Shown here: positions 5,483-39,897 of the stretch, piece by piece | Numbering within the stretch: position 1 is the stretch's first letter | Layout: each line of letters begins with the position of its first letter | Assembly (NCBI GenBank): GCA_002900535.1 | Contig: MUGC01000005.1 | Span: forward strand, 1-55,446 | From: Thermoplasmata archaeon M9B1D | GTDB taxonomy: Archaea > Thermoplasmatota > E2 > DHVEG-1 | Reading direction: 5' to 3' | DNA length: 55,446 nt | Translations under genes and position numbers: made by a program | Notes under the pieces: generated by a model | The model's database searches: none | Seen by the model: only the letters and a program-made list of their open reading frames with translations | Told to the model about the DNA's origin: nothing

Positions 5483-5917
5483 TTATTTTTTATTTTTCTC
5501 TGCTTTTTCTATTTCTTTTTTAAGCCATGGTCTAAGATTATCTACCTTAAACAGATTTTTTAATTCTTGTTTAAGATTTGATGGTTTTATTATTATTATC
5601 CAACCTTTATCATAGGGGCTTTTATTTAAAATAGTTGAGTTAAGCTCTAAATCTAAATTAGCCTTAATAATTACTCCAGATATAGGTGACACAAATTTAC
5701 CTATCCATTTTGATGACTGAATTCTTGCACATGTTTCACCTTGAATGACCTCATCATCTTCGAAAGGTAAATCAATATATGTAATTTCATCAGCACTTTT
5801 TAGATAAAAATCATTTATGCCAGCACGAATATTTCCATCAGACTCAATCTTTGCCCATGCATGGTCTTTATGATAGTATAAATCCTCTGGAAAATTATAC
5901 CCTTCAATTATTGTCAT
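5483..5917 (-). CDS. GcvH/LbpA-like lipoyl carrier protein
   Basis: 144 aa. It is colinear with glycine-cleavage H proteins: HAWAK..G..R.GI, and GETCARIQSSKWIGKFVSPISG aligns with [22 protein letters not shown], so the lipoyl-Lys (K70) is conserved. It is the last gene of the hdr operon, 47 nt after hdrA. Confidence 0.8.
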   Translation of the reverse strand: MTIIEGYNFPEDLYYHKDHAWAKIESDGNIRAGINDFYLKSADEITYIDLPFEDDEVIQGETCARIQSSKWIGKFVSPISGVIIKANLDLELNSTILNKSPYDKGWIIIIKPSNLKQELKNLFKVDNLRPWLKKEIEKAEKNKK

Positions 5918-5964: not shown

Positions 5965-8900
5965 TTATTTTACTGCTGCATGAATCATTGATGAAATTTG
6001 TTCTCTTTTGAATCCTTTTTGGTCGATAGCATCACAGGGACATGCAACTACACAATTTCCACATCCTTTACATGCTCCTTCAATGATATGGAAAACTCTA
6101 ATTTTTTTACCATTTTTTAGTTTTGTTGTTAATTCTATTGCTTTATATGGGCATGTAGTTAAGCATATACCACACCCACTGCATAAATCCTCATTTATAC
6201 TAGCAATTGGAATATCAATGTAATATTTATTATTTGAAATAATTGTTAATGCTCGAGACACTGCACCATATGACTGAGTTAAAGTTTCACTAATTGATTT
6301 CGGTGAATGTGCTAAACCTGCAAGGAATATACCATCGGTTGCAAAATCAACAGGTCGTAGTTTTACATGAGCCTCTAAAAAGAAATTATCTTCATTTAAC
6401 GGTACCTTCAATTTTTTTGCGAGTTTAACATTATCTTTTAATGGAATGATTGCTGGGCTTAAAACAAGGTAGTCCGCATGTATATTCATTATTTCATTAA
6501 TTATGGGTTCTCTTACAGTAATTTCAAGATCTTTTTTACCTTTTCTAACCTTTGGTTTCTGCTCTTTATTGTATCTTATAAAAATAATTCCTCTTTCTCG
6601 TGCTTTTTCATAATATGTTTCTTTAAATGAATATGTTCTAATATCCCGATATAAGATGAAGATTTCTGCATTAGGATGTAATTCTTTTATTTTCAAAGCG
6701 TTTTTTATGGCATCATTACAACATATTCTACTACAGTATGGTCTTTGATTTTCACGTGATCCTACGCATTGTATCATAACAATAGTTTTTTTATTGAAAT
6801 TATGGTCTCTTACAAGTTTTTTCTCAAGTTCAAGCTGAGTCATTATTCGTTTATCTTCACCATAAAAATACTCATTTGGTTTATATTCTTCAGCGCCTGT
6901 AGCAACAATAATAACGCCATGTTTAACGTTTAGTTTTGCGTTAATATTTTTTAATGTAGTAGAATAACTTCCAACGTAACCTTCGACTCTGTCAATCTTT
7001 GCTTTTTTATAAATTTTAATTTTTGGATGTTTCTCAACTTTTTCTATAATTGATTTCATGAATGCTTGAACATCTTTGTTTTCTAGGGTATAAAAAATTT
7101 TTTTAAGGTTTCCGCCTAGTTCTTTTTCTTTTTCAACTAAAAAGACTTCAAATCCTTGATCTGCAATTGCAAGGGCAGATGTCATCCCTGCCAGTCCCCC
7201 ACCTATAACTAGAGCTTTTTGTATGACATCCAATTGAATAGTTGAAATAGGTTCAAGGCTTAATGCTTTTGAAACAGCCATTCTGATAAGATCCTTTGAC
7301 TTCTGTGTTGCAGCCATAGGGTTATTCATGTGCACCCAAGAACATTGATCACGAATATTAGCCATCTCAAAAAGATGAGGATTTAAACCAGCTTCTTGAA
7401 TAGTAATCTGAAATAAAGATTCGTGTGTTCTTGGAGTGCAAGACGCAACAACTACTCGATTTAACTTTTTTTCTTTGATTTTTTCTATAATTTTTATTTG
7501 AGTGTCATCAGAGCAAGAATAAAGATCCTCTTGAGCATATACAACGTTAGATAGTGTTTCTGCATATTTTACTAATGAAGATACATCGACATAGCCGCCG
7601 ATGTTAATACCGCAACGACAAATAAAAACACCAATTCGTGGAGTTTTATTTTTAACATCGATTTCCTTTGGATACGCACTTTTCTCAATTAAAGTGTTTC
7701 TCTTAGAAGCTATTATGCTACCAGCCTTTGCAGCTGCCGCTGAACCCTCTGTAACTGTTTCAGGGATATCTTTCGGTCCAGAAAAAGAACCACAAACAAA
7801 TATACCGTTTCTTGTAGTATCTATAGGATTAAATTCAGTGGTATTACAAAAACCAAAATCGTTTAGACTTACACCTATTTTATTTGCAATTTCTTTCATT
7901 TTTTTATTAGCAGTAATCCCAACTGAGAGTATGACCATATCAAATTTTTCTTCTTTTAGCCAACCATCCTCAGTCTCATATTTTATCAAAAGGTCTCTAG
8001 TTTTTGACTCTTCATTAATACAAGATATTCTACATCTTATAAATCTGACATTGTAATCTTTTTTTGCTCTGTTATAATATCTTTCGAATCCCTTGCTAAA
8101 AGTCCTCATATCAATAAAGAAGATAGTAGGTTCTATTTTTGGAGTATGCTCTTTAGACATTACCGCCTGCTTAATAGCATATATACAACATACAGATGAA
8201 CAATAGTTGTTACCAAAAACATTATCACGTGAACCTACACATTGAATCCAGGCAATTTTTTTCGGTTCTTTTTCATCAGATGGGCGTACTACACGACCTT
8301 GATATGGGCCAGATGCTGAAAGCATATATTCAAATTCTAATGCATTTAAAACATTTGGAAAACGTTCATAACCATATTCGCTTCTCAGTCTAGCATCAAA
8401 AAGATCATAACCAGTTGCAAGTACAATTGAGCCAACGTTTAACTCAAGTATTTTTTCGTTCATTTCGTGATTGATTGCCTCTGCTTCACAAACCTTTGAG
8501 CACTGCATACACTCTGAACAAATAGAACATGAAAGACACCTCTTTGCTTCCTTTACTGCTTCCTCTTCTGTATAACCAAGGTCAATTTCTCTAAAATCTT
8601 TAATACGTTTTTCAACTAGGAGTTTTTTCATTTGTACCCGTGGTTGATCTTTTCTTCTTTCTCTTAGTTCTTTGATTGTGTTTTCTTTTTTTCCACGCCC
8701 CTTTCGTAAATCCTGGTTTTTTATGTACCTATCAATTGATATCGCACCTTCAATACCATGCCCAATTGCCTCAACAACAGAAGCAGGACCAAAAACAACA
8801 TCCCCACCTGCAAATACACCGGGTATATTGGTTTCAAGTGTGACTTCATCTGCTTTTATAGTTTTTCTTTCAGTTAGCTCTAGTTTTTCAAAACCAGTTA

Positions 8901-10401
8901 AATCTGGTGTTTGCCCTATTGCAATTATTAATGTATCACCGTTGATAATCTGAGCATGGTCACTAGAAAACTTAGGTGAAAAATTACCTTTTTTATCATA
9001 AGAACGTTCACAAACTCTTGTTTCAAGACCAGAAACCTTATTATTTTTAATTCTAATATTAGATGGATTTAAAGACTCATAAATAACAACTCCTTCTTCT
9101 TTAGCATGTCTGATTTCCTCTGCTTTAGCTGGCATTTCTTTTTCTAAACCACGGTAGACAATATAGGATTTTTCCGCCCCGAGACGAAGAGCTGTACGGG
9201 CACAATCAATTGCGACATTTCCCCCGCCAATAGTAATTACTTTCTTGCCAAAGTTCTTAGGTTTTTTACCTTGTTTTACATTTTTTAAAAATTGAATACC
9301 GTAAAAAACATTTTCCGCATTTGAGCCATTGATTTTGAGTCTTGTTGAGTTTTGTGATCCTATAGCTAAAAAGACTGCTTTGTATTGTTTCCTAATTTCA
9401 TTTAATGTAATATCTTTACCAATTTTCACGTTTTTCTGAAATTTAATACCATGATCTAATATTCTGTTAATATCATACATAGCAATTTTACTAGGAATGC
9501 GATAATCAGGCATGCAGCTAGTCATCATACCGCCAGGTTTACTTGAGGCTTCAAATATGGAAACAGGGTATCCCATTTCTGTAAGTTTATATGCACATGT
9601 AAGTCCTGAGGGCCCAGCGCCTATTATAGCAATTTTTTCTTTTTTCTTTGGTTTAATAATTTCTGGAGGTTCTTCTCCATTTTTTATAATATAGTCTGTA
9701 ACAAAACGTTTAAGATTTTTTATTGCAATAGGATCATCTATCTTTGAGCGTAAACATTCGTTCTCACAAGGATGATGACATACACGACCACATACCACTG
9801 GAAAAGGATTATTTTCACGAAGTAAATCCAATGCTTCCTTGAATTTTCTTTTACTTATTAACTCTACATATCCTTGAGCGTTAACCTTTGAAGGACAAGC
9901 TGTTCTACATGGAGATTTACCATCGAGTTTATCGATAGTGTAAACATTTGGAATAGCTTGAGGATACATCTTATAGATTGCGTGTCGTTCTGCTAATTGT
10001 TGATCAAATTGTGAATGTATTGATACTGGACAAACCTGTTCGCATTCTCCACAGCCGTTACATTTATTTATATCTACATAGCTTGGTTTTTTTCTAATTT
10101 TAACTTTAAAATTACCCGCAGAGCCAGATATATCTTGTAAATCAGAATAAGTAATCAGTTCGATATTTGGATGTCTCCCGACGTTAACAAGCTTAGGGGA
10201 CATAATACACATTGAGCATTCATTTGTTGGAAATGTTTTATCAAGTTGAGCCATGACTCCTCCGATAGCTGGTTTTTCTTCTAAAAGAAATGTTTTAAAA
10301 CCAGAGTTAGCAAGGTCAAGAGCAGCTTGCATCCCACCAATACCACCGCCAACTACTAAAACAGAGCCGATCTTTTCATGGGATGATGATTTTTTACTCA
10401 T
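5965..10401 (-). CDS. hdrA: giant HdrA-type flavoprotein: HdrA core 1 with a nested NfnB/GltD-like NAD(P)H module, fused to HdrA core 2
   Basis: 1478 aa.
- aa 12-160 are an HdrA FAD core (VVGGGIGGMQAALDLA, DKTFPTNECSMC, CNGCGECEQVCPV).
- aa ~163-620 are GltD/NfnB-like (CRTACP..NPFPVVCGRVCHHPCENEC, IAIIGAGPSGLTCA, ITIGGGNVAIDCARTALRLGA..YRG..EMPA).
- The sequence then returns to HdrA (CLSCSICSECMQCSKVCEAEAI, IQCVGSRD..YCSSVCCIY).
- aa ~920-1478 are a second HdrA unit with the N-terminal Cys domain (RIGVFICRCGINIG), a GGGLAG FAD core and a C-terminal 2x[4Fe-4S] ferredoxin. Confidence 0.85.
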   Translation of the reverse strand: MSKKSSSHEKIGSVLVVGGGIGGMQAALDLANSGFKTFLLEEKPAIGGVMAQLDKTFPTNECSMCIMSPKLVNVGRHPNIELITYSDLQDISGSAGNFKVKIRKKPSYVDINKCNGCGECEQVCPVSIHSQFDQQLAERHAIYKMYPQAIPNVYTIDKLDGKSPCRTACPSKVNAQGYVELISKRKFKEALDLLRENNPFPVVCGRVCHHPCENECLRSKIDDPIAIKNLKRFVTDYIIKNGEEPPEIIKPKKKEKIAIIGAGPSGLTCAYKLTEMGYPVSIFEASSKPGGMMTSCMPDYRIPSKIAMYDINRILDHGIKFQKNVKIGKDITLNEIRKQYKAVFLAIGSQNSTRLKINGSNAENVFYGIQFLKNVKQGKKPKNFGKKVITIGGGNVAIDCARTALRLGAEKSYIVYRGLEKEMPAKAEEIRHAKEEGVVIYESLNPSNIRIKNNKVSGLETRVCERSYDKKGNFSPKFSSDHAQIINGDTLIIAIGQTPDLTGFEKLELTERKTIKADEVTLETNIPGVFAGGDVVFGPASVVEAIGHGIEGAISIDRYIKNQDLRKGRGKKENTIKELRERRKDQPRVQMKKLLVEKRIKDFREIDLGYTEEEAVKEAKRCLSCSICSECMQCSKVCEAEAINHEMNEKILELNVGSIVLATGYDLFDARLRSEYGYERFPNVLNALEFEYMLSASGPYQGRVVRPSDEKEPKKIAWIQCVGSRDNVFGNNYCSSVCCIYAIKQAVMSKEHTPKIEPTIFFIDMRTFSKGFERYYNRAKKDYNVRFIRCRISCINEESKTRDLLIKYETEDGWLKEEKFDMVILSVGITANKKMKEIANKIGVSLNDFGFCNTTEFNPIDTTRNGIFVCGSFSGPKDIPETVTEGSAAAAKAGSIIASKRNTLIEKSAYPKEIDVKNKTPRIGVFICRCGINIGGYVDVSSLVKYAETLSNVVYAQEDLYSCSDDTQIKIIEKIKEKKLNRVVVASCTPRTHESLFQITIQEAGLNPHLFEMANIRDQCSWVHMNNPMAATQKSKDLIRMAVSKALSLEPISTIQLDVIQKALVIGGGLAGMTSALAIADQGFEVFLVEKEKELGGNLKKIFYTLENKDVQAFMKSIIEKVEKHPKIKIYKKAKIDRVEGYVGSYSTTLKNINAKLNVKHGVIIVATGAEEYKPNEYFYGEDKRIMTQLELEKKLVRDHNFNKKTIVMIQCVGSRENQRPYCSRICCNDAIKNALKIKELHPNAEIFILYRDIRTYSFKETYYEKARERGIIFIRYNKEQKPKVRKGKKDLEITVREPIINEIMNIHADYLVLSPAIIPLKDNVKLAKKLKVPLNEDNFFLEAHVKLRPVDFATDGIFLAGLAHSPKSISETLTQSYGAVSRALTIISNNKYYIDIPIASINEDLCSGCGICLTTCPYKAIELTTKLKNGKKIRVFHIIEGACKGCGNCVVACPCDAIDQKGFKREQISSMIHAAVK

Positions 10402-11279
10402 TTTACTAACTCCAATTTTTCAAGTAAAGCATCGGGTTTGATTTTGTTCATATGAAAACCAAGTTTTTCTTGATTTATACCTAGAGCCAGTCCCAAAACC
10501 TGAGGATAATAAAGCACAGGAAGATTATAATTTACACCATACTTTGCCTCTATCTTTTTCTGATTATCTTCGTACATAATTGAACAAAATGGACAAATTG
10601 TCACAAGGGCATCAACTTTATTTGCTGTAACATTGTCAAGTTTAGGTTTTGCCATTGATAGTGCCATGTCTCCCTCGATTCCTAGTAAAGCACCACCGCA
10701 GCAATCAAGCTTATTTTTATAATCTATTACCTCTGCACCTGTTACTGATACGAGCTCCTCAATTGTAGATGGATTTTCCGCATCTTCAAAATAATCATAC
10801 AAACTACTTGGTCTTAGATAATGACACCCATAATGAATTGATAATCTTAATTTACCAAGATCATTCTTTATTTTGTTTTTTATAAAGTTTAAGCCTATAT
10901 CTTCATATAGTACTCGTGCGAAATGTTTGATTTCTACACCTGGTTTATATGTTCTTCCTATTTTTGCAAGTTCTTTGTTTATTTTTTCACGTAGCTTTCT
11001 ATTGCTCGTAAGCTCTTTGTTTGCTCCGGTTAGAACAGAGGTGCATGCACTACATAAAGTACATATTTTTTCATCTCTGTCAGCAGCAACAGCTAAATTT
11101 CGAGCTGCTATTAATAATGATATTTCAGAATTAATAGATCTGATAGGAAAACCACAACAAGAGAAATCCTCGAGGTTATCAAAATGTATTCCCAATGTTT
11201 TTGCAACTGTTCTTGTTGCCATCTCATAGTTTTGCCCACGAATCGGAATTGTACATCCTAGAAATAATGCATATTTCAC
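10398..11279 (-). CDS. hdrB: heterodisulfide reductase subunit B (two CCG domains)
   Basis: 293 aa. Two CCG-type motifs are present (LGC..SCCGFP..CSAC and GCHY..DCCGG..CPFC). There is a 4-nt overlap with hdrA. Confidence 0.85.
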   Translation of the reverse strand: MKYALFLGCTIPIRGQNYEMATRTVAKTLGIHFDNLEDFSCCGFPIRSINSEISLLIAARNLAVAADRDEKICTLCSACTSVLTGANKELTSNRKLREKINKELAKIGRTYKPGVEIKHFARVLYEDIGLNFIKNKIKNDLGKLRLSIHYGCHYLRPSSLYDYFEDAENPSTIEELVSVTGAEVIDYKNKLDCCGGALLGIEGDMALSMAKPKLDNVTANKVDALVTICPFCSIMYEDNQKKIEAKYGVNYNLPVLYYPQVLGLALGINQEKLGFHMNKIKPDALLEKLELVK

Positions 11280-11764
11280 TAAATCTTCTCCTTTATACGC
11301 ATGTTTTTTAATAGTTTTTTTACTTCTTCAAAAATTTTTTTAATTGGAGGTAATCCTAATTTTTCTCGTTTTTTATTATCAAAATCTTCTATAATGTTCA
11401 ATCGGCCAAATGTACTAATTATTCTTGCTTGTCCCCTAAAAAAAGGGTGAATATATCCTTCTTTTACTGCAATGTTTTTTAATGCCATCATAATTTTTGT
11501 TAATTCTACATTCTGCGGGCAACGATCATCACAGGTACAACATGTTGAACAAAGCCATATAAAATCACTTTTTAAAACTCGATCTCTCATACCTAAGAGT
11601 ATCATTCGAATGATTTTACGAGGGTTGTATGTTTCATCAATTTCACGAACAGGACAGCTTGCTGTACAAGTACCACAGGCAAAGCACTTTGTAATATTTA
11701 TTCCACCTGTTTCTGCGGCTACTTCATATTTAAAATTATGATCTAACTCTTTTGAATCAATCAT
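11279..11764 (-). CDS. hdrC: heterodisulfide reductase subunit C (2x[4Fe-4S])
   Basis: 161 aa. Motifs CFACGTCTASCPV and CSTCCTCDDRCPQ are present. It overlaps both neighbours (1 nt and 4 nt). Confidence 0.8.
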   Translation of the reverse strand: MIDSKELDHNFKYEVAAETGGINITKCFACGTCTASCPVREIDETYNPRKIIRMILLGMRDRVLKSDFIWLCSTCCTCDDRCPQNVELTKIMMALKNIAVKEGYIHPFFRGQARIISTFGRLNIIEDFDNKKREKLGLPPIKKIFEEVKKLLKNMRIKEKI

Positions 11765-12837
11765 ACCTTTTCGGCCTCTATTATAGCGTTGGTAAGATCC
11801 TCAGGTTCAACACCTGGACTTTCAATTTTATGTTTATCGTAATAGTTTTCAATTTTGGAAATTAAGATTTTTTCTTTTCGTTTTGTTTTTATTAAACTGT
11901 TTTCTAATCTATCAAGTTCTGATTTTGGAACTAACTGAAAGTCACCTGAAATATCGATATTTTTAATGAAATTATTTTTTACTTCCTGAGCGGTTCGTAT
12001 CAATCCGCCTCTTGCTTTAGAAGTACCATATAAGATTTCTACGCCTTCACGTATTTTAACTCCTTGAGGGATTCTCGGTGTTTTTTTATATAGGAATTTA
12101 TCAGAGGTAAGCCATTGTTCGAGTTCTATCATTTTATTAATTGTTTCAATAGTCAGATTTACTGGTTTTAATTTACCAGTAATCTTCTCATAATTATTGA
12201 TAAGAGAACAAATAATTTCCTTTCTATCTGGTACATTACCAAGTTCACGTTTCATATTTGTTAGATTTTCCTCCATGGATTTATATATTTTACCTCTAAA
12301 TTTCTCATCAGGTACTCTGAGTATTTTACTCATGGTTTGATAATCAAAATCAATTAGAATACCACCAACAAATACCATGCTTTGACCAATATCGCCACCA
12401 CCTTCACCAGCTATCTTTTGTTCTTTTTTTGTTACAATATCATTTTCTGGTCGAAAATGTGCGTCGATCCCAAAATCCTGATAGGTATCACAGACAGGCT
12501 GTGAAAGGTAAGAAAATATATCTTTTATCCTATTTGGAAAACAGGGATTACCATTACGCCATATTAGTTGATAAAAAATCTGATTTTTATCTAAATAAGT
12601 TGCGCCACCACCAACCTCACGTCGCATAACATAGATGCCTCTTTTTTTACAATATTCTAGATCTACTTCTTTTTCTGCATCTTGAAAATATCCTATTGAT
12701 GCCAAAGGCACTTCAGGGGATACTATCACTAGTCCTTCAAAACCCATCCTTGCTAAAGCATGAAATATAATCATGGATTGTTGACCTGGCAAATAATCTA
12801 GATTAAGAAGCTTCATCACTTTCATTAGCCTCCGCAA
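11761..12837 (-). CDS. lplA: lipoate-protein ligase A-like (catalytic plus C-terminal accessory domain)
   Basis: 358 aa. It has a BPL/LplA/LipB-type core (MRREVGGGATYLDKNQIFY, KIAGEGGG) and an LplA C-terminal domain pattern (DISGDFQLVP..LDRLENSL). It is the first gene of the hdr operon. Confidence 0.7.
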   Translation of the reverse strand: MRRLMKVMKLLNLDYLPGQQSMIIFHALARMGFEGLVIVSPEVPLASIGYFQDAEKEVDLEYCKKRGIYVMRREVGGGATYLDKNQIFYQLIWRNGNPCFPNRIKDIFSYLSQPVCDTYQDFGIDAHFRPENDIVTKKEQKIAGEGGGDIGQSMVFVGGILIDFDYQTMSKILRVPDEKFRGKIYKSMEENLTNMKRELGNVPDRKEIICSLINNYEKITGKLKPVNLTIETINKMIELEQWLTSDKFLYKKTPRIPQGVKIREGVEILYGTSKARGGLIRTAQEVKNNFIKNIDISGDFQLVPKSELDRLENSLIKTKRKEKILISKIENYYDKHKIESPGVEPEDLTNAIIEAEKV

Positions 12838-13012: not shown

Positions 13013-13561
13013 CTATATGTCGCCTCGTTCCAATTTACGTTCTTTAACTATATCTAAAGGTTTTGCTCTTACTGTCTCCTGATATCTCAATACTTCGTCT
13101 ACAGCAACTATAGCACATGCAGATACTTCATTTTTTCCAAGTCCCCCAACAATATCATCAGTAAGAGCCAATATTTCTTCTTTTGAAAGACCTGAATTCA
13201 ACGCATTAATTATACATTTTCTCAATTCTTTTCTTGCTAAACTACAGATACCAAAAGATTTTTTAAGTTTATTCTTAATTTTCTCATTTTCTTGTGGAGA
13301 TAACTTACCTGGCTTCACCTTTCCATATTTATCTTCATGTCTTAAAGCCTGACCAATAGCAGTAATTGAACATAGAGACACGTCTTGTTGATCATAATCT
13401 CTTCCTAACTCATTACTAAATAGCAGAATATCTTCTTTAGTCATACCTGCATTCATGGAATCTATCACACTTTTTCTAAGCTGCCTTCTTCCTAAAGCAC
13501 ATTTTTTAAAACTTTCTGTAATATCTTTTCTTATTTTTTCTAGATTCATATAAACAATCAC
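13013..13561 (-). CDS. hypothetical protein with two internal ~85-aa Cys-containing helical repeats (weakly AhpD/CMD-like)
   Basis: 182 aa. The repeat consensus is C-x2-(G/A)-R-x-(Q/E)-LRK-x6-(N/D)-x-G-(L/I/M)-(T/S)-KE(E/D)-IL ... S-x-C-(A/S)-I-x-A-(I/V). It is a paralog of 13700..14248. Confidence 0.6.
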   Translation of the reverse strand: MIVYMNLEKIRKDITESFKKCALGRRQLRKSVIDSMNAGMTKEDILLFSNELGRDYDQQDVSLCSITAIGQALRHEDKYGKVKPGKLSPQENEKIKNKLKKSFGICSLARKELRKCIINALNSGLSKEEILALTDDIVGGLGKNEVSACAIVAVDEVLRYQETVRAKPLDIVKERKLERGDI

Positions 13562-13699: not shown

Positions 13700-14248
13700 T
13701 CATTCTGGGAATTCCATATAAGGCGCATACATTTTTACCATCTTTTTTAATTTATCGAAATCTTCATATTTTAAAACTTCGTCGACTGCGATAATGGCAC
13801 AAACCGAGACCTGGTCTTTTCCGAATCCCCCAACTAGATCATCGCATATAGCAAGTAGTTCTTCTTTTGTCAAACCTGAATTTAATGCATTGGCAACGCA
13901 TTTTCTTAGCTGTCTTCTAGCAAGACCACACTTTTTAAAACATTGTCTAAGCTTATTATAAATTTCAACCTTTTTTTGAGATGCAGGAGGTTCCGGTTTT
14001 ATTTTTTTATTTTCTCCTTCATATTTTAAAGCTTGGCCTATAGCTGTTATTGCACATAATGATGCTTCATCCTTGAAACCTTCTTCTTTCAATTTATTAG
14101 AAATAGCTAATATTTCTTCTTTGGTTATTCCCTTATCCATTGCAGAATCTACATATTTTCTTAGTTGGTTTCTTCCAGCAGCACATTTCCTAAAACAAAC
14201 CTCAAGTTTATCTTTTATTTCTCCTTTATTCAATTGGCCTTTCATCAA
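13700..14248 (-). CDS. hypothetical protein, tandem paralog of 13013..13561 (same double repeat), C-terminal YAPYMEFPE tail
   Basis: 182 aa, with the same length and repeat architecture as its neighbour. The C-terminal motif recurs in the degenerate fragment at 20808..20978. Confidence 0.6.
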   Translation of the reverse strand: MMKGQLNKGEIKDKLEVCFRKCAAGRNQLRKYVDSAMDKGITKEEILAISNKLKEEGFKDEASLCAITAIGQALKYEGENKKIKPEPPASQKKVEIYNKLRQCFKKCGLARRQLRKCVANALNSGLTKEELLAICDDLVGGFGKDQVSVCAIIAVDEVLKYEDFDKLKKMVKMYAPYMEFPE

Positions 14249-16880: not shown

Positions 16881-17930
16881 ATGCTCATGGCATCATATAT
16901 TATTGACAAAAAAGATTTGAAAATTCTTCTAGATAAGTTTCTTAAAGAGTTTAAGGTCTATGGTCCAATAAAACCAGGTCTAGATTCATCTGTTGATGAA
17001 ATAAAATCAATAGATGATTTACATTTAGAATATAAATCAACTATTATTTCTCCTAAGAAATTTTTCCTTCCTCCAAAGGATACTTTATTTGAATTTAAAA
17101 TTCAAAAAGGAAATTATGAAATCAAAGAAATTGTAAATGATGAAAAGTTTATTTTATTTGGACTTCATCCATGCGATGTTAATGCTATTTTGAAATTAGA
17201 TGAGTTTTTTTCAGGGAAATTTAAAGATAAGTATTATCAAAATAGAAGAAAAAATTCAATTATTATTGCATTAAACTGTACACAACCTGGAGAAAATTCT
17301 TTCTGCAAATCTATGAATGCTGGTCCCTTCCTTTATAAAGGGTACGATATCTTACTTACAGATATCGATACAAAATATCTAATTGAAATCGGATCGGATA
17401 AAGGAAAAAAAATAATACAAGGATTAAAATTAAACATTGCTTCTAAAAATGATTTATTAAAAAAAGAAAAAAAATGTAAATTAGCCAACAAAAAAATAAA
17501 AAAAATTTTAGATCCAAATTGGCTTCCTAAACTTGCTGAAGAAAATCTTGACCACGAAATATGGATTGATCTTGGTGAACGTGGTGGTGTTGCTGGTTCC
17601 TTTCCTTGTTTATCATGCGGATCTTGCAGTCTTGTTTGTCCAACTTGCTATTGTTATGACATTTATGATACTGTAGATCTATCATTAAAAAATGGAAGCC
17701 GAGTAAGAGAACTTGATTCCTGTCAACTTCTTGAATATGGTCAAGTTGCTCTTGGAGGAAACTTTAGAAAAGATAGAAAAGATAGAATCAGGCATTGGAT
17801 GTTTTGTAAATTCGGTGCTGCAGCAGGGAGTAAAAACTCCAGTTGTGTCGGTTGCGGAAGATGCATAAGGGTTTGCCCATCTAAAATTGATATAACAAAA
17901 GTAGCAAAATCTTTATGGAGAAAAAAATAA
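16881..17930 (+). CDS. hydB: group 3b hydrogenase beta subunit-like Fe-S protein (HydB/AsrA family)
   Basis: 349 aa. Motifs FGLHPCDVNA, CLSCGSCSLVCPTCYC and CVGCGRCIRVCP are present. It is the first gene of a beta-gamma-delta-alpha arrangement like Pyrococcus sulfhydrogenase. Confidence 0.7.
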   Translation: MLMASYIIDKKDLKILLDKFLKEFKVYGPIKPGLDSSVDEIKSIDDLHLEYKSTIISPKKFFLPPKDTLFEFKIQKGNYEIKEIVNDEKFILFGLHPCDVNAILKLDEFFSGKFKDKYYQNRRKNSIIIALNCTQPGENSFCKSMNAGPFLYKGYDILLTDIDTKYLIEIGSDKGKKIIQGLKLNIASKNDLLKKEKKCKLANKKIKKILDPNWLPKLAEENLDHEIWIDLGERGGVAGSFPCLSCGSCSLVCPTCYCYDIYDTVDLSLKNGSRVRELDSCQLLEYGQVALGGNFRKDRKDRIRHWMFCKFGAAAGSKNSSCVGCGRCIRVCPSKIDITKVAKSLWRKK

Positions 17931-17931
17931 C

Positions 17932-18762
17932 ATGATGAATGAATATTATCCTAATTTTGCAATAATCAAAGAAATAAAAAAAGAAACTATCAATACAAAC
18001 ACATTTGTTTTAAAATTTACAGATCAAAAGATTGCAGACAAGTTTTCATGGAAACCTGGACAGTTTATGATGCTTAGCGTACTTGGAGTTGGTGAATCAG
18101 CAATTTCAATATCTAGTGTTGAAAACGATAATTCAATTAATGCAACAATTAGAAACGTTGGTAATGTCACAAATTCAATTTTTTCATTAAAAAAAGGTGA
18201 CAGCCTTGGTATGCGAGGACCATATGGTACAGGGTGGCCACTTGAAAAAATAATAGGAAAGGATATTTTAATTGTTGCCGGTGGAATGGGATTAGCACCA
18301 TTATATGGCGTAATAAATCACGTAATCAGAAATAGAACAGAATATGGTCATCTTGAAATTATTTATGGTGCTAGAACACCTGAAAATATGGTGTTTAAAG
18401 ACGAATTTTCCAAATGGAAGAGAATAAAGAATAGTACATTTTTTTTAACCGCTGATGAAATAACAAGGGAAAATCCTTTTGAGTGCAGAACAGGTCTTGT
18501 TACATCTTGTTTCCCGATGATGAAAACACATCATAGAAATGCAATAGCACTTTTATGTGGTCCTGAAATTATGATGAGGTTTGCTGCAAAATGTCTTGAA
18601 ACAATTGGTTTTGCTGATAAAAAAATTTACTTATCACTTGAACGACGTATGAAATGTGGAATTGGAAAATGTGGTCATTGTCAGATTGGTTTGAAGTATG
18701 TTTGTAAAGATGGGCCTGTGTTTAACTATGATGATATAAAACCCTTTATCCGACCGTTATGA
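17932..18762 (+). CDS. hydG: group 3b hydrogenase gamma subunit-like (FAD/NAD(P)-binding, C-terminal [2Fe-2S]; HydG/NfnA/SudB/PyrK family)
   Basis: 276 aa. Motifs PGQFMML, MRGPYG, AGGMGLAPL and the C-terminal MKCGIGKCGHCQIG..VCKDGPVF are present. Confidence 0.8.
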   Translation: MMNEYYPNFAIIKEIKKETINTNTFVLKFTDQKIADKFSWKPGQFMMLSVLGVGESAISISSVENDNSINATIRNVGNVTNSIFSLKKGDSLGMRGPYGTGWPLEKIIGKDILIVAGGMGLAPLYGVINHVIRNRTEYGHLEIIYGARTPENMVFKDEFSKWKRIKNSTFFLTADEITRENPFECRTGLVTSCFPMMKTHHRNAIALLCGPEIMMRFAAKCLETIGFADKKIYLSLERRMKCGIGKCGHCQIGLKYVCKDGPVFNYDDIKPFIRPL

Positions 18763-18776
18763 GGTGAAATTAAAAA

Positions 18777-19538
18777 ATGGCTAAGAAACCAAAGATTGGT
18801 GTATTCAAATTAACAGGTTGTGCAGGTTGCCAGATGGAAATATTTCGTATGGAAGATGAATTTTTGGATTTAATAAAATTATTTGATATTAGTTACTGGA
18901 AGATGGCTAAAAGGGATAATGATGATAAAGATTTAGACATTGCTCTAATTGAAGGTGGAATATCAACACCATGGGAAATTGAAGAAATCAAATGTATCAG
19001 AAAAAATACTAAATTTTTAGTTGCATTTGGCGACTGTGCAATTGGTGGTTGTATTCCAAGTATTCGCAATTGGATTCCTCAAATGGAAAGCGAAGAAATT
19101 GTTTATCCCGACCCATCAAAGATATGTTCCACCAAAGTACATGGTATTGGTGAATATGTAAAGGTCGATGCAGAATTAAAAGGATGTCCACCTCATCGAA
19201 AAACAATTCTTGAACTACTCAAATCTGCTCTTTTAAAAATTAGACCAAGACTTAGACAACATCCGGTTTGCGTAGAATGTAAATTTCAAGGTAATGCATG
19301 TTTGATTACCAGTAATAAATTGCCATGTATGGGACCTGTTATTAGTGGCGGTTGTGGTGCAATTTGTCCAACGCTTGGCAGAATATGTGAGGGTTGTTTT
19401 GGTCCAATGAGTAACCCAAACGCTTCTGCTCTTGCAAATATATTTAGGGACATTGGTCTAAATGATGAAGATATAAAACGTAAATTCAGGAAGTACTCAG
19501 GTATGAGCCCAGAATTTAGACTGGAGGCTGGACACTAA
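18777..19538 (+). CDS. hydD: [NiFe] hydrogenase small (delta) subunit, group 3b type
   Basis: 253 aa. It has the N-terminal KLTGCAGCQMEI motif and several distal Cys clusters. There is a 1-nt overlap with the large-subunit ATG. Confidence 0.8.
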   Translation: MAKKPKIGVFKLTGCAGCQMEIFRMEDEFLDLIKLFDISYWKMAKRDNDDKDLDIALIEGGISTPWEIEEIKCIRKNTKFLVAFGDCAIGGCIPSIRNWIPQMESEEIVYPDPSKICSTKVHGIGEYVKVDAELKGCPPHRKTILELLKSALLKIRPRLRQHPVCVECKFQGNACLITSNKLPCMGPVISGGCGAICPTLGRICEGCFGPMSNPNASALANIFRDIGLNDEDIKRKFRKYSGMSPEFRLEAGH

Positions 19539-20802
19539 TGACTGAGAAAACAATTAAAGTTGACTATATCGCACGAGTTGAAGGTCAAGGTGCAATTAGT
19601 ATAGATATAACAAAATATGGTAAAGTTGAAAATTTACAGTTTAAAATATTTGAACCGCCTCGTTTCTTTGAATCTTTTCTTGTTGGAAGAAAATATGATG
19701 AGGTGATGGAGCTTACAAGTAGAATATGTGGTATTTGTCCTGTTGCACATCAAATAACAGCGTTACGTGCTGTTGAAAATGCTATGGGCATAGTTATTAG
19801 CAATCAAACAAGAGATCTTAGAAAGCTTATGGCAATTAGTGCGCGCATATTCAGAGTAATGTTCTCAGCATGTATTTTTTAAGTCTACCTGATCTAATGG
19901 GTTATGAAAGCATTATTGCCATGGTGAAAGATCATTTGGATATTGTTAAAAGAGCTTTAATGCTTAAGAAACTCGGTAATGATATCATACAATTAATTGG
20001 TGGACGATCAGTTCATCCAGTTACAATGATTGTTGATGGTTTTACATCGATTCCTAGTAAAAAAAAGTTTGAAGTTATTAGAAAACGCCTTGTTGACGCC
20101 AAAAAAGTTGCTTTTGAAACCGTTGATATTTTCGCAAATATAAAAATTCCAGATTTCACTCGTAAATGTGAACATGTTGCTATTTCTAATTCTAAAAGTT
20201 ATGCTATAAACGAGGGGCGTTTAAAATCAACTGGAGGAATTGACATCGATGAGACAAACTATCGGGATTATATTTTTGAAAAACAAAAACCGTATTCTAC
20301 TGCTCTGCATAGTTATATTAAAAATCGTGATTCTTTTATGGTTGGACCCTTACCACGGGTTAATCTTAACCTTAAACAGATGTCAGATGATGCAAGAAAT
20401 ACTGCTGGAAATTGTGGTATGAAATTTCCTAATTATAATCCTTTTGTTTCTCATCTTGCAAGAGCAATAGAGCTAGTTCATGATATCGATGAATCCATTG
20501 AAATTATTGAGCGTTTACCACTAAAAGAGGAACATAGTACTCACATGTGCAAATCTGGTTTTGGAGCAGCAATAACTGAAGCCCCACGTGGAAGTCTATA
20601 TCATAGCTACGTTTTAAATAACAATGGAGTTGTCAAAAAAGCAGATATTGTTCCGCCTACTGCTCATAATGCATATAACATTGAAAAAGATATGAATGAG
20701 TTCGTTCAAACAATAATTGATGATCCATTGGATAAAATTACTTTAAAATGTGAAATGCTTGTTAGAGCATATGATCCTTGCATTTCTTGTTCTGCTCACT
20801 AA
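19538..20802 (+). pseudogene. hydA: [NiFe] hydrogenase large (alpha) subunit, group 3b type, split by a frameshift at (GC)3 19841..19846
   Basis: ORF 19538..19882 carries L1 RICGICPVAH. ORF 19870..20802 (-1 frame) carries C-terminal DPCISCSAH. The second frame is already open from 19840 as CAHIQSNVLSMYFLSLPD. 114 plus 310 aa sums to a normal alpha-subunit length. Confidence 0.8.
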
Positions 20803-29987: not shown

Positions 29988-29996
29988 ATTTATCCT

Positions 29997-31858: not shown

Positions 31859-31875
31859 ATTATTTTTTTCTCTCC

Positions 31876-34239: not shown

Positions 34240-34241
34240 GA

Positions 34242-35675: not shown

Positions 35676-35676
35676 A

Positions 35677-36096: not shown

Positions 36097-36108
36097 AATT
36101 TTTTCACC

Positions 36109-36582: not shown

Positions 36583-36595
36583 AGATATTTTTCCT

Positions 36596-38988: not shown

Positions 38989-39010
38989 ATACTACCACCT
39001 TTTTCAAATC

Positions 39011-39892: not shown

Positions 39893-39897
39893 AGTTA

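What the first reader, a model, noticed from the sequence alone, without database searches (positions are those of the whole stretch)
5965..10401. 1478-aa HdrA with an NfnB/GltD-type flavoprotein module nested inside its inserted-ferredoxin domain, fused to a second HdrA core
Seen in the sequence:
- The HdrA core 1 sequence is interrupted after the first cluster motif of its inserted ferredoxin domain (CNGCGECEQVCPV ... AIYKMYPQAIP).
- The interrupting segment is ~455 aa with every hallmark of glutamate-synthase small subunit/NfnB/SudA proteins: the Cys-rich alpha domain, GAGPSGL FAD fold, and GGGNVAIDCARTA..YRG..EMPA NAD(P)H fold (nt ~8542-9915).
- HdrA then resumes at CLSCSICSECMQCSKVCEAEAI.
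- A complete second HdrA unit follows (nt 5965-7644).

Established knowledge: the HdrA FAD and the NfnB L-FAD are each bifurcating flavins in their own complexes.

Inference: one polypeptide would hold two bifurcation-type flavin sites plus a third FAD core. I am not aware of this architecture having been characterised.
Basis: partly seen in the sequence, partly recalled or inferred. Interest (0 to 1): 0.8.

Follow-up and report, generated by a model that had tools for sequence, protein, structure and literature searches.

The report
NAD(P)H-module-bearing double HdrA fusion protein
This intact 1478-residue gene is a real, widespread and biochemically untested redox protein: two heterodisulfide-reductase A units fused together, with an NAD(P)H-binding flavoprotein nested inside one of them, an architecture already noted in the genomics literature that here sits in an archaeal operon pointing to a lipoylated protein as its disulfide partner.

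Summary
ORF 5965..10401(-) encodes a 1478-aa protein. A 469-aa GltD/NfnB-type flavoprotein (aa 159-627) is nested between the two cluster motifs of the inserted-ferredoxin domain of an HdrA unit, and a second HdrA unit follows.

It is not a chimera. More than 100 cluster representatives, and 48 genes in species-representative genomes from many bacterial and archaeal phyla (including cultured Desulfotomaculales), share the full architecture.

- The two HdrA units are complementary, not complete, so together they form a single-chain pseudo-dimer. Unit 1 lacks the N-terminal and C-terminal domains but keeps Cys197. Unit 2 has both of those domains but lacks the inserted ferredoxin and Cys197.
- The insert is of the StnC/NfnA(Bfu) type: permuted topology and an invariant Lys, not Glu, at the proximal-cluster ligand position. 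The flavin of that type has been shown not to bifurcate. "Two bifurcating flavins" is therefore unlikely.

The insert is best read as a hard-wired NAD(P)H port. The architecture was already described genomically (HdrL 2009; ANME-1 HdrA9-11 2022, with the same speculation). I found no biochemistry and no solved structure.

The local operon, LplA-HdrC-HdrB-HdrA*-GcvH, is conserved in Asgard/Thermoplasmatota relatives. It suggests lipoyl-GcvH as the disulfide substrate.

The parts
5965..10401 (-). hdrA* : 1478-aa HdrA(unit 1, with nested NAD(P)H flavoprotein)-HdrA(unit 2) fusion. Predicted cofactors: 3 FAD and 9 [4Fe-4S].
   Evidence: all cluster Cys are invariant in 20-30 homologs
9928..10362 (-). 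Unit 1, first part (aa 14-158 = HdrA 146-290). Contains the FAD GxGxxG motif, the 'QLDKTFPTNECSMC' motif with the Cys194/Cys197 equivalents (C62, C65), and inserted-ferredoxin motif 1 (C114, C117, C120, C124).
   Evidence: alignment to 5odc_A; for invariance
8521..9927 (-). Nested StnC/NfnA(Bfu)/NfnB-like module (aa 159-627). It holds 2 [4Fe-4S] clusters (C165, C169, C204, C208, C212, C216, K231, C622, C625), an FAD site (GAGPSGL; R301) and an NAD(P)H site (GGGNVAID...IVYRGLEKEMPA). Its topology is permuted: the 'RCLSC' helix lies after the flavoprotein part.
   Evidence: AF2 block-mean pLDDT mostly 82-97 across the module, lower (65-75) around aa 351-360 and 461-480; Foldseek rmsd 2.3 A over 473 columns to 9bov_A
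7708..8520 (-). Unit 1, second part (aa 628-898 = HdrA 293-566). Contains inserted-ferredoxin motif 2 (C628, C631, C634, C638), the thioredoxin-reductase-domain [4Fe-4S] (C721, C734, C738, C739) and the Lys409 equivalent (K744).
7246..7644 (-). HdrA N-terminal domain of unit 2 (aa 920-1052), with cluster Cys C928, C930, C963, C988 (and C1020).
6217..7236 (-). Unit 2 thioredoxin-reductase-like FAD domain (aa 1056-1395). GxGxxG, C1212/C1223/C1227/C1228 and K1233 are present. There is no inserted ferredoxin and no Cys194/197.
5968..6216 (-). C-terminal 2x[4Fe-4S] ferredoxin domain (aa 1396-1478). This is the likely port to ferredoxin or MvhD.
   Evidence: MvhD is fused directly after this domain in P0065, P0037 and P0034
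10398..11279 (-). hdrB (293 aa, two CCG domains); its stop overlaps the hdrA* start codon.
   Evidence: TIGR03288: 272.7 bits, below the cut-off of 345
11279..11764 (-). hdrC (161 aa, 2x[4Fe-4S]).
11761..12837 (-). Lipoate-protein ligase LplA-like gene (358 aa; catalytic and C-terminal domains). The 'RREVGGGATYLD' motif and the catalytic-Lys 'QKIAG' motif are conserved. The gene overlaps hdrC.
   Evidence: conserved directly upstream of hdrCB in L001, L084, L085, L086 and L043
5483..5917 (-). GcvH-like lipoyl-carrier protein (144 aa). The lipoyl-Lys is conserved ('IQSSKW').
   Evidence: adjacent in L001 and L084, nearby in L086 and L039

Best explanation
The gene encodes the flavoprotein core of a soluble HdrABC-type complex with three electron ports.

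Shown by sequence and homology:
- The polypeptide is a single-chain pseudo-dimer of HdrA. Unit 1 carries the canonical flavin environment (Cys194/197 motif, Lys409 equivalent) and the only inserted-ferredoxin domain.
- Unit 2 contributes the only N-terminal-domain cluster and the only C-terminal ferredoxin domain.
- A StnC/NfnA(Bfu)-type GltD-fold module is spliced between the two halves of the inserted-ferredoxin domain. The Cys of its distal [4Fe-4S] (C622, C625) lie two residues before the next ferredoxin-cluster Cys (C628).

Inferred:
- The nested FAD is an ordinary two-electron/one-electron converter. It oxidises NAD(P)H (or reduces NAD(P)+); here the 'YR' motif suggests NADPH.
- It exchanges single electrons along the chain: its two clusters, then the two inserted-ferredoxin clusters, then the N-domain cluster, then the HdrA unit-1 FAD. 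That last FAD is the only bifurcating/confurcating flavin.
- The second port is HdrC/HdrB, which handles a disulfide.
- The third port is the C-terminal ferredoxin domain, which talks to ferredoxin here and to MvhD in many bacterial homologs.
- The net reaction is Nfn-like: 2 NAD(P)H + 2 Fd(ox) + R-S-S-R' <-> 2 NAD(P)+ + 2 Fd(red) + 2 thiols.
- In this archaeon the conserved LplA-hdrCB-hdrA*-gcvH operon makes the lipoyl disulfide of the GcvH-like protein the most likely R-S-S-R'. Its E0' of about -290 mV is close to the NAD+/NADH couple that serves this role in Nfn. The physiological direction may therefore be confurcation: dihydrolipoyl-GcvH plus reduced ferredoxin giving NAD(P)H.
For: Architecture:
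- Domain map against 5odc_A and NfnB/StnC.
- All 9 cluster-ligand sets, 3 GxGxxG motifs and both Lys409 equivalents are invariant in 20-30 homologs of 50-76% identity.
- An insert-free protein with the same unit order lies in the same window (orf1071) and in many archaeal loci.
- A 'split' version occurs in Bathyarchaeia L045: GcvH, then a stand-alone insert-like gene with a ferredoxin domain, then an insert-free double HdrA.

Insert as a non-bifurcating NAD(P)H port:
- Collinear match to StnC 98-575, including the C-terminal RCLxC, whereas NfnB residues 6-43 map behind the flavoprotein part.
- K231 aligns with StnC K170. NfnB has Glu there (PMC10482914).
- K231 is invariant.
- The best structural matches of the AF2 model are the NfnA subunits of NfnABC and StnC.
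- Those flavins only feed electrons to a separate bifurcating module.
- No NfnA-like gene lies in the operon.

Third port: MvhD is fused after the C-terminal ferredoxin domain in P0065, P0037 and P0034. An mvhD gene follows hdrA* in 33 of 48 loci.

Lipoyl-GcvH:
- LplA-hdrC-hdrB-(double HdrA)-GcvH recurs in the window, L001, L084, L085, L086, L043 and L039.
- The lipoyl-Lys is kept exactly in the clade that has LplA.
- Ligase motifs are intact.
- A GcvH domain is fused to HdrC in Cloacimonas L003.
- GcvH has been proposed before as an Hdr disulfide carrier in Culexarchaeia (PMC9723716).
- Lipoamide E0' is -0.29 V (PMC6067878).
Against: - No activity, cofactor or structural data exist for any member.
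- Whether a flavin bifurcates cannot be read from sequence. The StnC argument rests partly on Arg geometry that sequence cannot show, and that Arg (R301) is conserved here as in both types.
- In canonical Mvh-Hdr the inserted-ferredoxin branch is the low-potential exit to ferredoxin. Using it as the NAD(P)H entry swaps branch roles.
- A lipoyl couple at -290 mV gives almost no driving force for ferredoxin reduction by NAD(P)H.
- GcvH-like partners in L003, L045 and L052 lack the lipoyl-Lys. GcvH may therefore be an adaptor, and the real disulfide may be something else, for example the Cys-rich 182-aa proteins upstream or a sulfur carrier.
- Most bacterial homologs sit next to MetFV or AsrAB-like genes, not GcvH, so the HdrBC substrate is not uniform across the family.
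- I could not measure cluster distances, because no model coordinates are available.
Confidence: 0.5

Rival explanations
1. Dual-bifurcation enzyme. Both the nested NfnB-like FAD and the HdrA FAD bifurcate, giving two coupled bifurcation sites in one polypeptide. An NfnA-like or other partner would provide the second exit at the nested flavin.
For: - The insert is 36-42% identical to bifurcating NfnB/NfnL and keeps the Arg that hydrogen-bonds N5 in NfnB (R301).
- NfnA/PyrK-like genes (FAD, NAD and [2Fe-2S] domains) occur in the same operon as hdrA* in about 9-10 of 48 loci (cluster c7).
- Two such genes lie in this window, at 17932..18762 and 29997..30686. The second is close to the other insert-bearing HdrA paralog.
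- The idea is published as speculation (PMC9012536).
Against: - The proximal-cluster ligand is Lys (StnC-type), not the Glu held responsible for the very low cluster potential in NfnB.
- The topology is StnC-like.
- In StnABC and NfnABC the homologous FAD does not bifurcate.
- No NfnA-like gene lies in this operon.
- The NfnA-like genes elsewhere are always paired with AsrA-like genes, as in sulfhydrogenase-type modules.
Confidence: 0.12
2. No bifurcation at all. The protein is a linear NAD(P)H:disulfide oxidoreductase, for example an iron-sulfur substitute for dihydrolipoamide dehydrogenase acting on lipoyl-GcvH. The HdrA flavins and clusters would serve only as a wire. The C-terminal ferredoxin domain would be structural, or a side entry.
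For: - NAD(P)H (-320 mV) and lipoyl (-290 mV) are nearly isopotential, so no coupling is needed thermodynamically.
- The sHdr-LbpA system shows Hdr-like proteins working with lipoate and without demonstrated bifurcation.
- No mvhD and no dedicated ferredoxin gene lies in this operon.
Against: - All features of bifurcating HdrA are kept and invariant: the Lys409 equivalent, the Cys197/N-domain cluster, and both ferredoxin domains.
- Simple disulfide reductases do not need 3 FAD and 9 clusters.
- The organism encodes several ferredoxin-generating 2-oxoacid oxidoreductase subunits in the same window.
- Homologs couple to MvhD, MetFV or hydrogenases.
Confidence: 0.2
3. Sulfur-relay enzyme. The complex is an anaerobic counterpart of the sHdr-LbpA system. 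It would use lipoyl-GcvH as an LbpA-like carrier to reduce or oxidise protein-bound persulfide/polysulfide sulfur with NAD(P)H and ferredoxin.
For: - The combination of a lipoate-binding protein, a dedicated ligase and Hdr mirrors sHdr-LbpA-sLplAB.
- DsrE and TusA genes directly follow hdrA* in Cloacimonas L003. Four or five DsrE-family genes, TusA and OsmC lie about 5 kb downstream in L085.
Against: - No DsrE, TusA or rhodanese gene was found among the window ORFs that I scanned against Pfam; these were most, but not all, ORFs of at least 100 aa.
- There is only one HdrB/HdrC pair, and a large HdrA instead of the ~350-aa sHdrA.
- tblastn with the L003 DsrE and TusA sequences found such genes in only 3 of 86 loci in all: DsrE in L003 and L085, TusA in L003 and L006. 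Pfam also marks a TusA in L085.
Confidence: 0.1
4. Assembly chimera or pseudogene that joins separate hdrA and gltD genes.
For: The MAG contains at least two apparent frameshifts elsewhere in the window: 25306-25340, and the hydrogenase large subunit at 19870-19882.
Against: - The same collinear architecture, at 50-76% identity over 98-100% of the length, occurs in more than 100 cluster representatives.
- It occurs in 48 genes from GTDB species representatives.
- It occurs in complete genomes and cultured strains.
- The junction-spanning segment alone finds 103 representatives of 50%-identity clusters at E <= 1e-30.
Confidence: 0.01

Closest known systems
ANME-1 HdrA9/10/11 (Chadwick et al. 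2022, PLoS Biol, PMC9012536)
   Same: [quoted passage not shown] Genomic description only.
   Different: [quoted passage not shown] Here the insert sits in a fused double HdrA, in a non-methanotroph, and the family spans many bacterial phyla. I could not check whether HdrA9-11 also carry a second unit. The window's other paralog (25304..28123) is the single-unit form.
HdrL of Desulfobacterium autotrophicum and Syntrophobacter fumaroxidans (PMC2702500; PMC5947623)
   Same: [quoted passage not shown] It was detected in proteomes under sulfate reduction. Homologs of the window protein with the full architecture occur in Desulfobacteraceae and Syntrophobacterales.
   Different: I could not compare sequences with the named HdrL proteins. 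HdrL1 and HdrL3 are selenoproteins; this one has no in-frame TGA. There is no mvhD in the window operon.
StnC of StnABC (8oh5) and NfnA of NfnABC/Bfu (9bov, 9n5u)
   Same: The nested module has the same permuted GltD fold, two [4Fe-4S] clusters, a Lys at the proximal-cluster ligand position, the conserved Arg and an NADPH-type site. These are the best sequence and structure matches.
   Different: In those enzymes the module is fused to NuoG/FdhF-like domains and feeds a HydBC-type FMN bifurcation site. Here it is spliced into the HdrA ferredoxin domain.
NfnB/NfnL of NfnAB (4ylf, 5jca)
   Same: GltD fold, FAD, an NAD(P)H site and 2 [4Fe-4S]; 36-39% identity.
   Different: NfnB has a Glu cluster ligand, the N-terminal position of the RCLQC helix, and an NfnA partner that provides the second exit. 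None of these three applies here.
Fused double HdrA (ANME HdrA3/4; HdrA of the Moorella MetFV-HdrABC-MvhD complex)
   Same: Two HdrA units in one chain with complementary presence of the N-terminal domain and Cys197. Two FAD were measured in Moorella HdrA. Many bacterial homologs of the window protein sit next to mvhD-metV-metF.
   Different: Those were described without the GltD-like insert. As described by Chadwick, the N-domain-bearing unit comes first, whereas here it comes second. I could not establish whether Moorella HdrA carries the insert, because Mock 2014 is not held in the library.
sHdr-LbpA-sLpl(AB) sulfur-oxidation system (Cao et al. 2018, PMC6067878)
   Same: An Hdr-like complex genetically tied to a GcvH-like lipoate-binding protein and a dedicated lipoate-protein ligase.
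   Different: sHdr has a ~350-aa HdrA without ferredoxin domains, two HdrB/HdrC pairs and obligatory DsrE/TusA sulfur transferases, and it occurs in sulfur oxidisers.
MvhADG-HdrABC of methanogens (5odc)
   Same: All HdrA domains and ligands are present once per polypeptide. HdrB and HdrC are adjacent.
   Different: It is a homodimer of complete HdrA, has no NAD(P)H site, uses H2 via MvhD as donor and reduces CoM-S-S-CoB.

Membership tests
HdrA (bifurcating heterodisulfide reductase subunit A) | Thioredoxin-reductase-like FAD domain with GxGxxG and the Lys409 equivalent at N5 | tested here: met
   Both units. G18-G23 with K744, and G1067-G1072 with K1233; all invariant.
HdrA (bifurcating heterodisulfide reductase subunit A) | [4Fe-4S] of the FAD domain (C386/C399/C403/C404 motif) that leads to HdrC | tested here: met
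   C721/C734/C738/C739 and C1212/C1223/C1227/C1228.
HdrA (bifurcating heterodisulfide reductase subunit A) | N-terminal-domain cluster completed by Cys197 of the partner subunit | tested here: met
   Met in trans within one chain. The N-domain is found only in unit 2 (aa 920-1052). The Cys194/197 equivalents (C62, C65) are found only in unit 1.
HdrA (bifurcating heterodisulfide reductase subunit A) | Inserted and C-terminal 2x[4Fe-4S] ferredoxin domains | tested here: met
   One of each per polypeptide. The inserted domain is split by the 469-aa module; the C-terminal domain is aa 1396-1478.
HdrA (bifurcating heterodisulfide reductase subunit A) | Reaches the curated NCBIfam HdrA/HdrA2 score | tested here: not met
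   NF040770: 1004.8 bits against 1100. NF041778: 762 bits against 1400.
HdrA (bifurcating heterodisulfide reductase subunit A) | Ferredoxin-dependent bifurcating reduction of CoM-S-S-CoB | not testable with these tools
   Needs enzymology. I did not check whether the organism makes CoM/CoB or carries mcr. Related non-methanogenic archaea are reported to use an unidentified disulfide.
NfnB (bifurcating subunit of NfnAB) | GltD fold with FAD, an NADPH site and two [4Fe-4S] | tested here: met
NfnB (bifurcating subunit of NfnAB) | Glu as fourth ligand of the proximal cluster | tested here: not met
   K231 aligns with E of 'RLERFV' (T. maritima) and 'KLERFV' (P. furiosus), and is invariant in homologs.
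NfnB (bifurcating subunit of NfnAB) | NfnA partner ([2Fe-2S], a-FAD) giving a second exit | tested here: not met
   None in the operon. PyrK/NfnA-like genes elsewhere in the window are paired with AsrA-like genes.
StnC / NfnA(Bfu)-type GltD-like NADPH input module | Permuted order (Cys-rich domain, flavoprotein, then the RCLxC helix), with Lys at the proximal-cluster position | tested here: met
   Collinear with 8oh5_C residues 98-575 and with 9bov_A. K231 = StnC K170 (PMC10482914).
StnC / NfnA(Bfu)-type GltD-like NADPH input module | Delivers electrons to a HydBC/BfuBC FMN bifurcation core | tested here: not met
   No NuoF/HydB-like gene in the operon. The module is embedded in HdrA.
HdrL (Strittmatter 2009) | One polypeptide with HdrA and glutamate-synthase-like NAD(P)H-binding parts | tested here: met
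HdrL (Strittmatter 2009) | Gene followed by mvhD | tested here: not met
   Not in the window operon. True for 33 of 48 homologous loci.
ANME-1 HdrA9-11 type (Chadwick 2022) | ~500-aa NfnB-like insertion inside the inserted-ferredoxin domain | tested here: met
   The insertion lies between HdrA residues 290 and 293.
sHdr-LbpA system | Lipoate-binding GcvH-like protein with the Lys, plus a dedicated ligase next to hdr genes | tested here: met
sHdr-LbpA system | Short sHdrA, two HdrB/HdrC pairs, DsrE/TusA sulfur transferases | tested here: not met
   One hdrB and one hdrC in the operon. No DsrE or TusA among the window ORFs scanned.
MetFV-HdrABC-MvhD methylene-THF reductase | metF, metV and mvhD adjacent to hdrABC | tested here: not met
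   Absent next to this gene. Present next to about 16-19 bacterial homologs.

The most novel reading that the evidence does not exclude
In Asgard/Thermoplasmatota-type archaea, the long-sought 'unknown heterodisulfide' of non-methanogenic Hdr complexes would be the lipoyl group of a dedicated GcvH-like protein. This protein would then be the core of an Nfn-like NADPH / ferredoxin / lipoyl-protein electron-confurcating enzyme: a flavin/iron-sulfur replacement for dihydrolipoamide dehydrogenase that couples lipoate redox chemistry to the ferredoxin pool.
Probability: 0.3. Interest if true: 0.75.

Novelty: new member of a known kind. Interest (0 to 1): 0.45.

Why it matters
HdrA-based complexes are one of the four known solutions to flavin-based electron bifurcation. 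Their non-methanogenic versions are abundant in anaerobes, but their donors and disulfide substrates are mostly unknown.

This family is very widespread, from Desulfotomaculales, Syntrophales, Chloroflexota and Acidobacteriota to Thermoplasmatota and Asgard archaea. It builds the NAD(P)H site into HdrA itself. That makes it a tractable candidate for settling how NAD(P)H is coupled to Hdr chemistry, for example in MetFV-Hdr-type methylene-THF reductases.

The present analysis does three things:
- It lowers the appeal of the 'two bifurcating flavins' idea.
- It gives a concrete, testable wiring diagram.
- It points to lipoyl-GcvH as a candidate for the unidentified disulfide in Asgard/Thermoplasmatota Hdr systems.

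It is not a new kind of system. The architecture has been in the literature since 2009 and 2022, and in genomes of cultured bacteria under misleading names such as 'glutamate synthase beta chain' and 'YgfK'.

Tried and rejected
Hypotheses tested and rejected:
1. Assembly chimera. Rejected by the homolog surveys.
2. Selenocysteine or read-through in hdrA*. There is none; the ORF is uninterrupted.

Things I could not do:
3. Measure cluster-to-cluster distances. Structure prediction returns no coordinates. I could use only pLDDT/pTM (81.7/0.72 for aa 1-920) and Foldseek matches. The proximity argument therefore rests on the two-residue spacing between C625 and C628.
4. Decide whether the biochemically studied Moorella MetFV-HdrABC-MvhD complex contains this architecture. 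Mock et al. 2014 and Pereira et al. 2011 are not held. Moorella did not appear among the 120 best relatives of the Desulfotruncus homolog, which does not exclude it.
5. Confirm HdrL identity at sequence level. The named HdrL sequences were not retrievable.
6. Look up the second insert-bearing paralog (orf939) by exact sequence. It is not on record. It turned out to be frameshifted.
7. Settle the taxonomy. The NCBI label is Thermoplasmata. The operon is 72-77% identical and syntenic to a complete Promethearchaeota genome, while the neighbouring PEPCK is only 50% identical. Lateral transfer or a binning error remains open.
8. Test for gcvP, gcvT or lpd in the genome.
9. One paper search failed on term length.

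Full report
**1. The observation**

The minus-strand ORF 5965..10401 is an uninterrupted 1478-codon frame. Its ATG overlaps the stop of the upstream hdrB (10398..11279). Pfam and NCBIfam find HdrA-type and GltD/NfnB-type signatures at very high significance. HdrA2 model NF040770 scores 1004.8 bits in four stretches. The NAD(P)-binding family NF009410 scores 566.5 bits, above its cut-off of 516, over aa 157-657. Fer4_20 covers aa 162-241 and Pyr_redox_2 covers aa 256-549.

Alignments to the solved HdrA of *Methanothermococcus thermolithotrophicus* (5odc_A) give a precise map:
- aa 14-158 = HdrA 146-290
- aa 628-898 = HdrA 293-566
- aa 920-1149 = HdrA 3-233
- aa 1159-1474 = HdrA 319-647

The 469 residues between HdrA positions 290 and 293 (aa 159-627; nt 8521-9927) match NfnA of NfnABC, StnC and NfnB with E = 1e-90 to 1e-111. 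The insertion lies exactly between the two Cys motifs of the HdrA inserted-ferredoxin domain.

**2. Corrections to the anatomy**

The two HdrA units are not equivalent.
- Unit 1 (aa 14-158 plus 628-898) has no N-terminal domain and no C-terminal ferredoxin domain. It keeps the 'QLDKTFPTN(E/D)C..C' motif with the equivalents of Cys194/Cys197 (C62, C65), and it holds the only inserted-ferredoxin domain.
- Unit 2 (aa 920-1478) has the N-terminal cluster domain and the C-terminal 2x[4Fe-4S] domain. Its inserted-ferredoxin domain is replaced by about 9 residues. None of 20 homologs has a Cys at the Cys194/197 positions of unit 2.

This is the complementarity that Chadwick et al. described for fused or tandem HdrA and read as a built-in heterodimer (PMC9012536). 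Both units keep GxGxxG, the FAD-domain [4Fe-4S] motif and the Lys409 equivalent (K744, K1233). All are invariant across homologs. The predicted cofactor load is 3 FAD and 9 [4Fe-4S].

An insert-free protein with the same unit order lies in the same window (orf1071, 40329..43544). The same form is common in archaeal relatives. hdrA* is thus that double HdrA plus one insertion.

**3. What kind of module is nested**

The insert aligns collinearly with StnC (8oh5_C residues 98-575) and with the NfnA subunits of NfnABC (9bov_A, 9n5u_A), including a C-terminal '...EA.RCLxC' helix. In NfnB the equivalent helix (residues 6-43) is N-terminal. The module therefore has the StnC-type permuted topology. 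Its chain ends fall inside the distal-cluster motif: C165/C169 lie at the start of the insert and C622/C625 at its end. Only two residues separate C625 from C628, the first Cys of the resumed HdrA ferredoxin motif.

From this spacing I infer that the distal cluster of the insert and an HdrA ferredoxin cluster are within tunnelling distance. I could not measure this directly.

The fourth ligand position of the proximal cluster is Lys (K231, 'KNLKRFV'). StnC has K170 there, whereas NfnB has Glu (PMC10482914). K231 is invariant in 30 homologs.

An AlphaFold2 model of aa 1-920 is confident (mean pLDDT 81.7, pTM 0.72; block means across the insert mostly 82-97, with dips to 65-75 near aa 351-360 and 461-480). 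Its best structural matches are Csac NfnABC NfnA (rmsd 2.3 A over 473 columns), *T. sibiricus* NfnABC and StnC. HdrA cores come next (TM 0.91 relative to the target), and NfnL/NfnB only after those.

[quoted passage not shown] In NfnABC it is treated as the NADPH entry that feeds a chain of clusters.

The NAD(P)H site varies within the family. The window protein and a few relatives have the NfnB/GltD-like 'YR(R/G)' motif. Most members have 'CLE(T/S)R', with an acidic residue typical of NADH sites. Specificity remains untested.

**4. Not an artefact, and not rare**

- The exact protein is on record as 'MAG: 4Fe-4S ferredoxin [Thermoplasmata archaeon M9B1D]', on a 55,446-bp contig. More than 100 cluster representatives share 50-76% identity over 98-100% of the length.
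It gave 48 genes with the full order: unit 1a, insert, unit 1b, N-domain, unit 2, C-terminal ferredoxin. They come from Thermotogae, Clostridia, Syntrophales, Smithella, Syntrophobacterales, Desulfobacteraceae, Acidobacteriota, Planctomycetota, Chloroflexota, Nitrospinaceae, Spirochaetes and others.
- A second search shows the architecture in many cultured Desulfotomaculales: Desulfoscipio gibsoniae, Desulforamulus ruminis, Desulfotomaculum nigrificans, Pelotomaculum propionicicum and Sporotomaculum syntrophicum. There it is annotated as 'glutamate synthase beta chain', 'YgfK' or 'FAD-dependent oxidoreductase'.
- An exhaustive HMMER search with only the junction segment (aa 575-720) found 103 representatives of 50%-identity clusters at E <= 1e-30, with matches running across the junction.

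Variants exist:
- a ~1650-aa form with a partly duplicated Rossmann part (L085);
- forms with MvhD fused directly after the C-terminal ferredoxin domain;
- a single-unit form, which is the window's own second copy at 25304..28123;
- a split form in Bathyarchaeia, where a stand-alone insert-like gene lies next to an insert-free double HdrA (L045).

**5. Genomic context**

In the window the operon is: LplA-like ligase (11761..12837), hdrC, hdrB, hdrA*, GcvH-like protein (5483..5917).

The ligase keeps its lipoyl-AMP loop and catalytic Lys motif. The GcvH-like protein keeps the lipoyl-Lys but scores below the curated GcvH cut-offs.

LplA directly upstream of hdrCB recurs in:
- a complete Promethearchaeota genome (L001, 72% identity);
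- three further archaeal lineages (L084, L085, L086);
- upstream of an insert-free double HdrA in a Thermoplasmatota MAG (L043).

GcvH is adjacent or nearby in L001, L084, L086 and L039. The lipoyl-Lys is conserved exactly where LplA is present. It is lost in GcvH-like partners of L003, L045 and L052. In Cloacimonas a GcvH domain is fused to HdrC.

Bacterial homologs sit mainly in two other contexts:
- hdrA*-mvhD-metV-metF (+hdrCB), reminiscent of the Moorella MetFV-HdrABC-MvhD enzyme;
- hdrA*-mvhD-FeS protein-hdrCB-AsrA-like-AsrB/NfnA-like.

The partner at the HdrBC and MvhD ports therefore differs between lineages, while the built-in NAD(P)H port is the constant.

**6. Mechanism proposed**

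Shown: the cofactor-binding anatomy, its conservation, and the conserved neighbours.

Inferred:
- NAD(P)H is oxidised at the nested, non-bifurcating FAD.
- Electrons pass singly through the insert's two clusters, the two inserted-ferredoxin clusters and the N-domain/Cys65 cluster to the unit-1 FAD.
- Bifurcation or confurcation occurs at the unit-1 FAD, between the HdrC/HdrB branch (disulfide) and the C-terminal ferredoxin branch (ferredoxin, or MvhD-linked partners elsewhere).

With lipoyl-GcvH (E0' about -290 mV) as the disulfide, the reaction is energetically analogous to Nfn. It is probably close to equilibrium, or runs towards NAD(P)H formation from reduced ferredoxin plus dihydrolipoyl-GcvH. 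The window also encodes 2-oxoacid:ferredoxin oxidoreductase subunits, so a ferredoxin pool is plausible.

Weak points:
- The roles of the inserted-ferredoxin and C-terminal branches are swapped relative to Mvh-Hdr.
- There is little driving force with lipoate.
- GcvH may be only an adaptor.
- No experimental data exist.

I put 0.5 on the overall scheme. The anatomy is much more certain. The lipoyl-GcvH substrate is less so, at about 0.3-0.4.

**7. Rivals**

- Dual bifurcation (0.12). Favoured only by overall similarity to NfnB, and by NfnA-like genes in some homologous operons and elsewhere in this window. Disfavoured by the Lys ligand, the StnC-type topology and the lack of an NfnA partner in this operon.
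- Linear NAD(P)H:lipoyl-protein reductase (0.2). Thermodynamically sufficient, but it does not explain why every bifurcation-associated HdrA feature is retained.
- Sulfur-relay role akin to sHdr-LbpA (0.1). Suggested by DsrE/TusA genes near two homologs. Unsupported in this window.
- Chimera or pseudogene. Excluded.

**8. Comparison with the known, and novelty**

The architecture class is already in the literature. [quoted passage not shown] The ANME-1 HdrA9-11 paper states that the NfnB-like insertion potentially gives '2 electron bifurcation sites'.

No PDB chain covers the architecture. I found no enzymology in the searched library. I could not settle whether Moorella's purified HdrA carries the insert.

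I therefore rate the finding as a new member of a known but uncharacterised kind. This analysis adds:
- the pseudo-dimer domain logic;
- assignment of the insert to the StnC/NfnA(Bfu) type;
- the breadth of distribution;
- the LplA/GcvH linkage in Asgard/Thermoplasmatota-type archaea.

That linkage bears on the 'unidentified heterodisulfide' repeatedly noted for such archaea.

Interest is 0.45. The finding is solid and worth biochemical follow-up, but it would not surprise specialists.

Noticed in passing
window 40329..43544 (-), with neighbours 28095..40326: A second Hdr cluster. It starts with a 1071-aa double HdrA that has the same unit order as the target but no insert. Downstream on the minus strand follow hdrC, hdrB, MvhG/MvhA-like [NiFe] hydrogenase subunits, HycI, MvhD, a GlcD-like FAD oxidase, a FlpD-polyferredoxin, another FlpD, an AsrA-like/NfnA-like pair and a canonical 630-aa HdrA. 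The window is an 'Hdr island' with four HdrA paralogs.
   Followed up: partly
window 25304..28123 (-) and 24513..25256 (-): A single-unit HdrA with its own NfnB/StnC-like insert. The insert has the Lys ligand and carries an extra 2x[4Fe-4S] ferredoxin inside the NAD domain. The gene is split by a frameshift in an A-run near 25306-25340, and it lacks about 24 residues before the 'IQCVGSRD' motif. It is either a pseudogene or an assembly error.
   Followed up: partly
window 19538..19882 (+) and 19870..20802 (+): The large subunit of a group-3-type [NiFe] hydrogenase is split into two overlapping ORFs. It lies downstream of AsrA-like, AsrB-like and small-subunit genes at 16881..19538. This is the second apparent frameshift in the contig and suggests homopolymer errors in the MAG.
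   Followed up: no
window 13013..13561 (-) and 13700..14248 (-): Two paralogous 182-aa proteins with no Pfam family. Each is an internal duplication with four invariant Cys (C21, C64, C106, C149). They are conserved directly upstream of the LplA-hdrCB-hdrA*-gcvH operon in L001 and L084. They may be thiol/disulfide proteins linked to the system.
   Followed up: partly
whole window compared with L001 (Promethearchaeota CP070831.1) and L084: The Hdr operon proteins are 72-77% identical and syntenic to a complete Promethearchaeota (Asgard) genome. The neighbouring PEPCK is only 50% identical, and the record is labelled Thermoplasmata. This points either to lateral transfer of the operon or to a taxonomic/binning problem.
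   Followed up: partly
L045:9441-15440 (Bathyarchaeia): A 'split' arrangement: a GcvH-like gene without the lipoyl-Lys, then a stand-alone 587-aa NfnB/StnC-like protein with a C-terminal ferredoxin domain, then an insert-free double HdrA. It looks like the unfused counterpart of the target.
   Followed up: partly
L003:4387-6692 (Cloacimonas): Response-regulator receiver domains are fused to GcvH-like domains, and one such protein is further fused to HdrC. In this fused domain the lipoyl-Lys position holds Arg.
   Followed up: partly
window 52288..53589 (-): A full-length serpin (PF00079, E = 5e-120) encoded in this archaeal contig.
   Followed up: no
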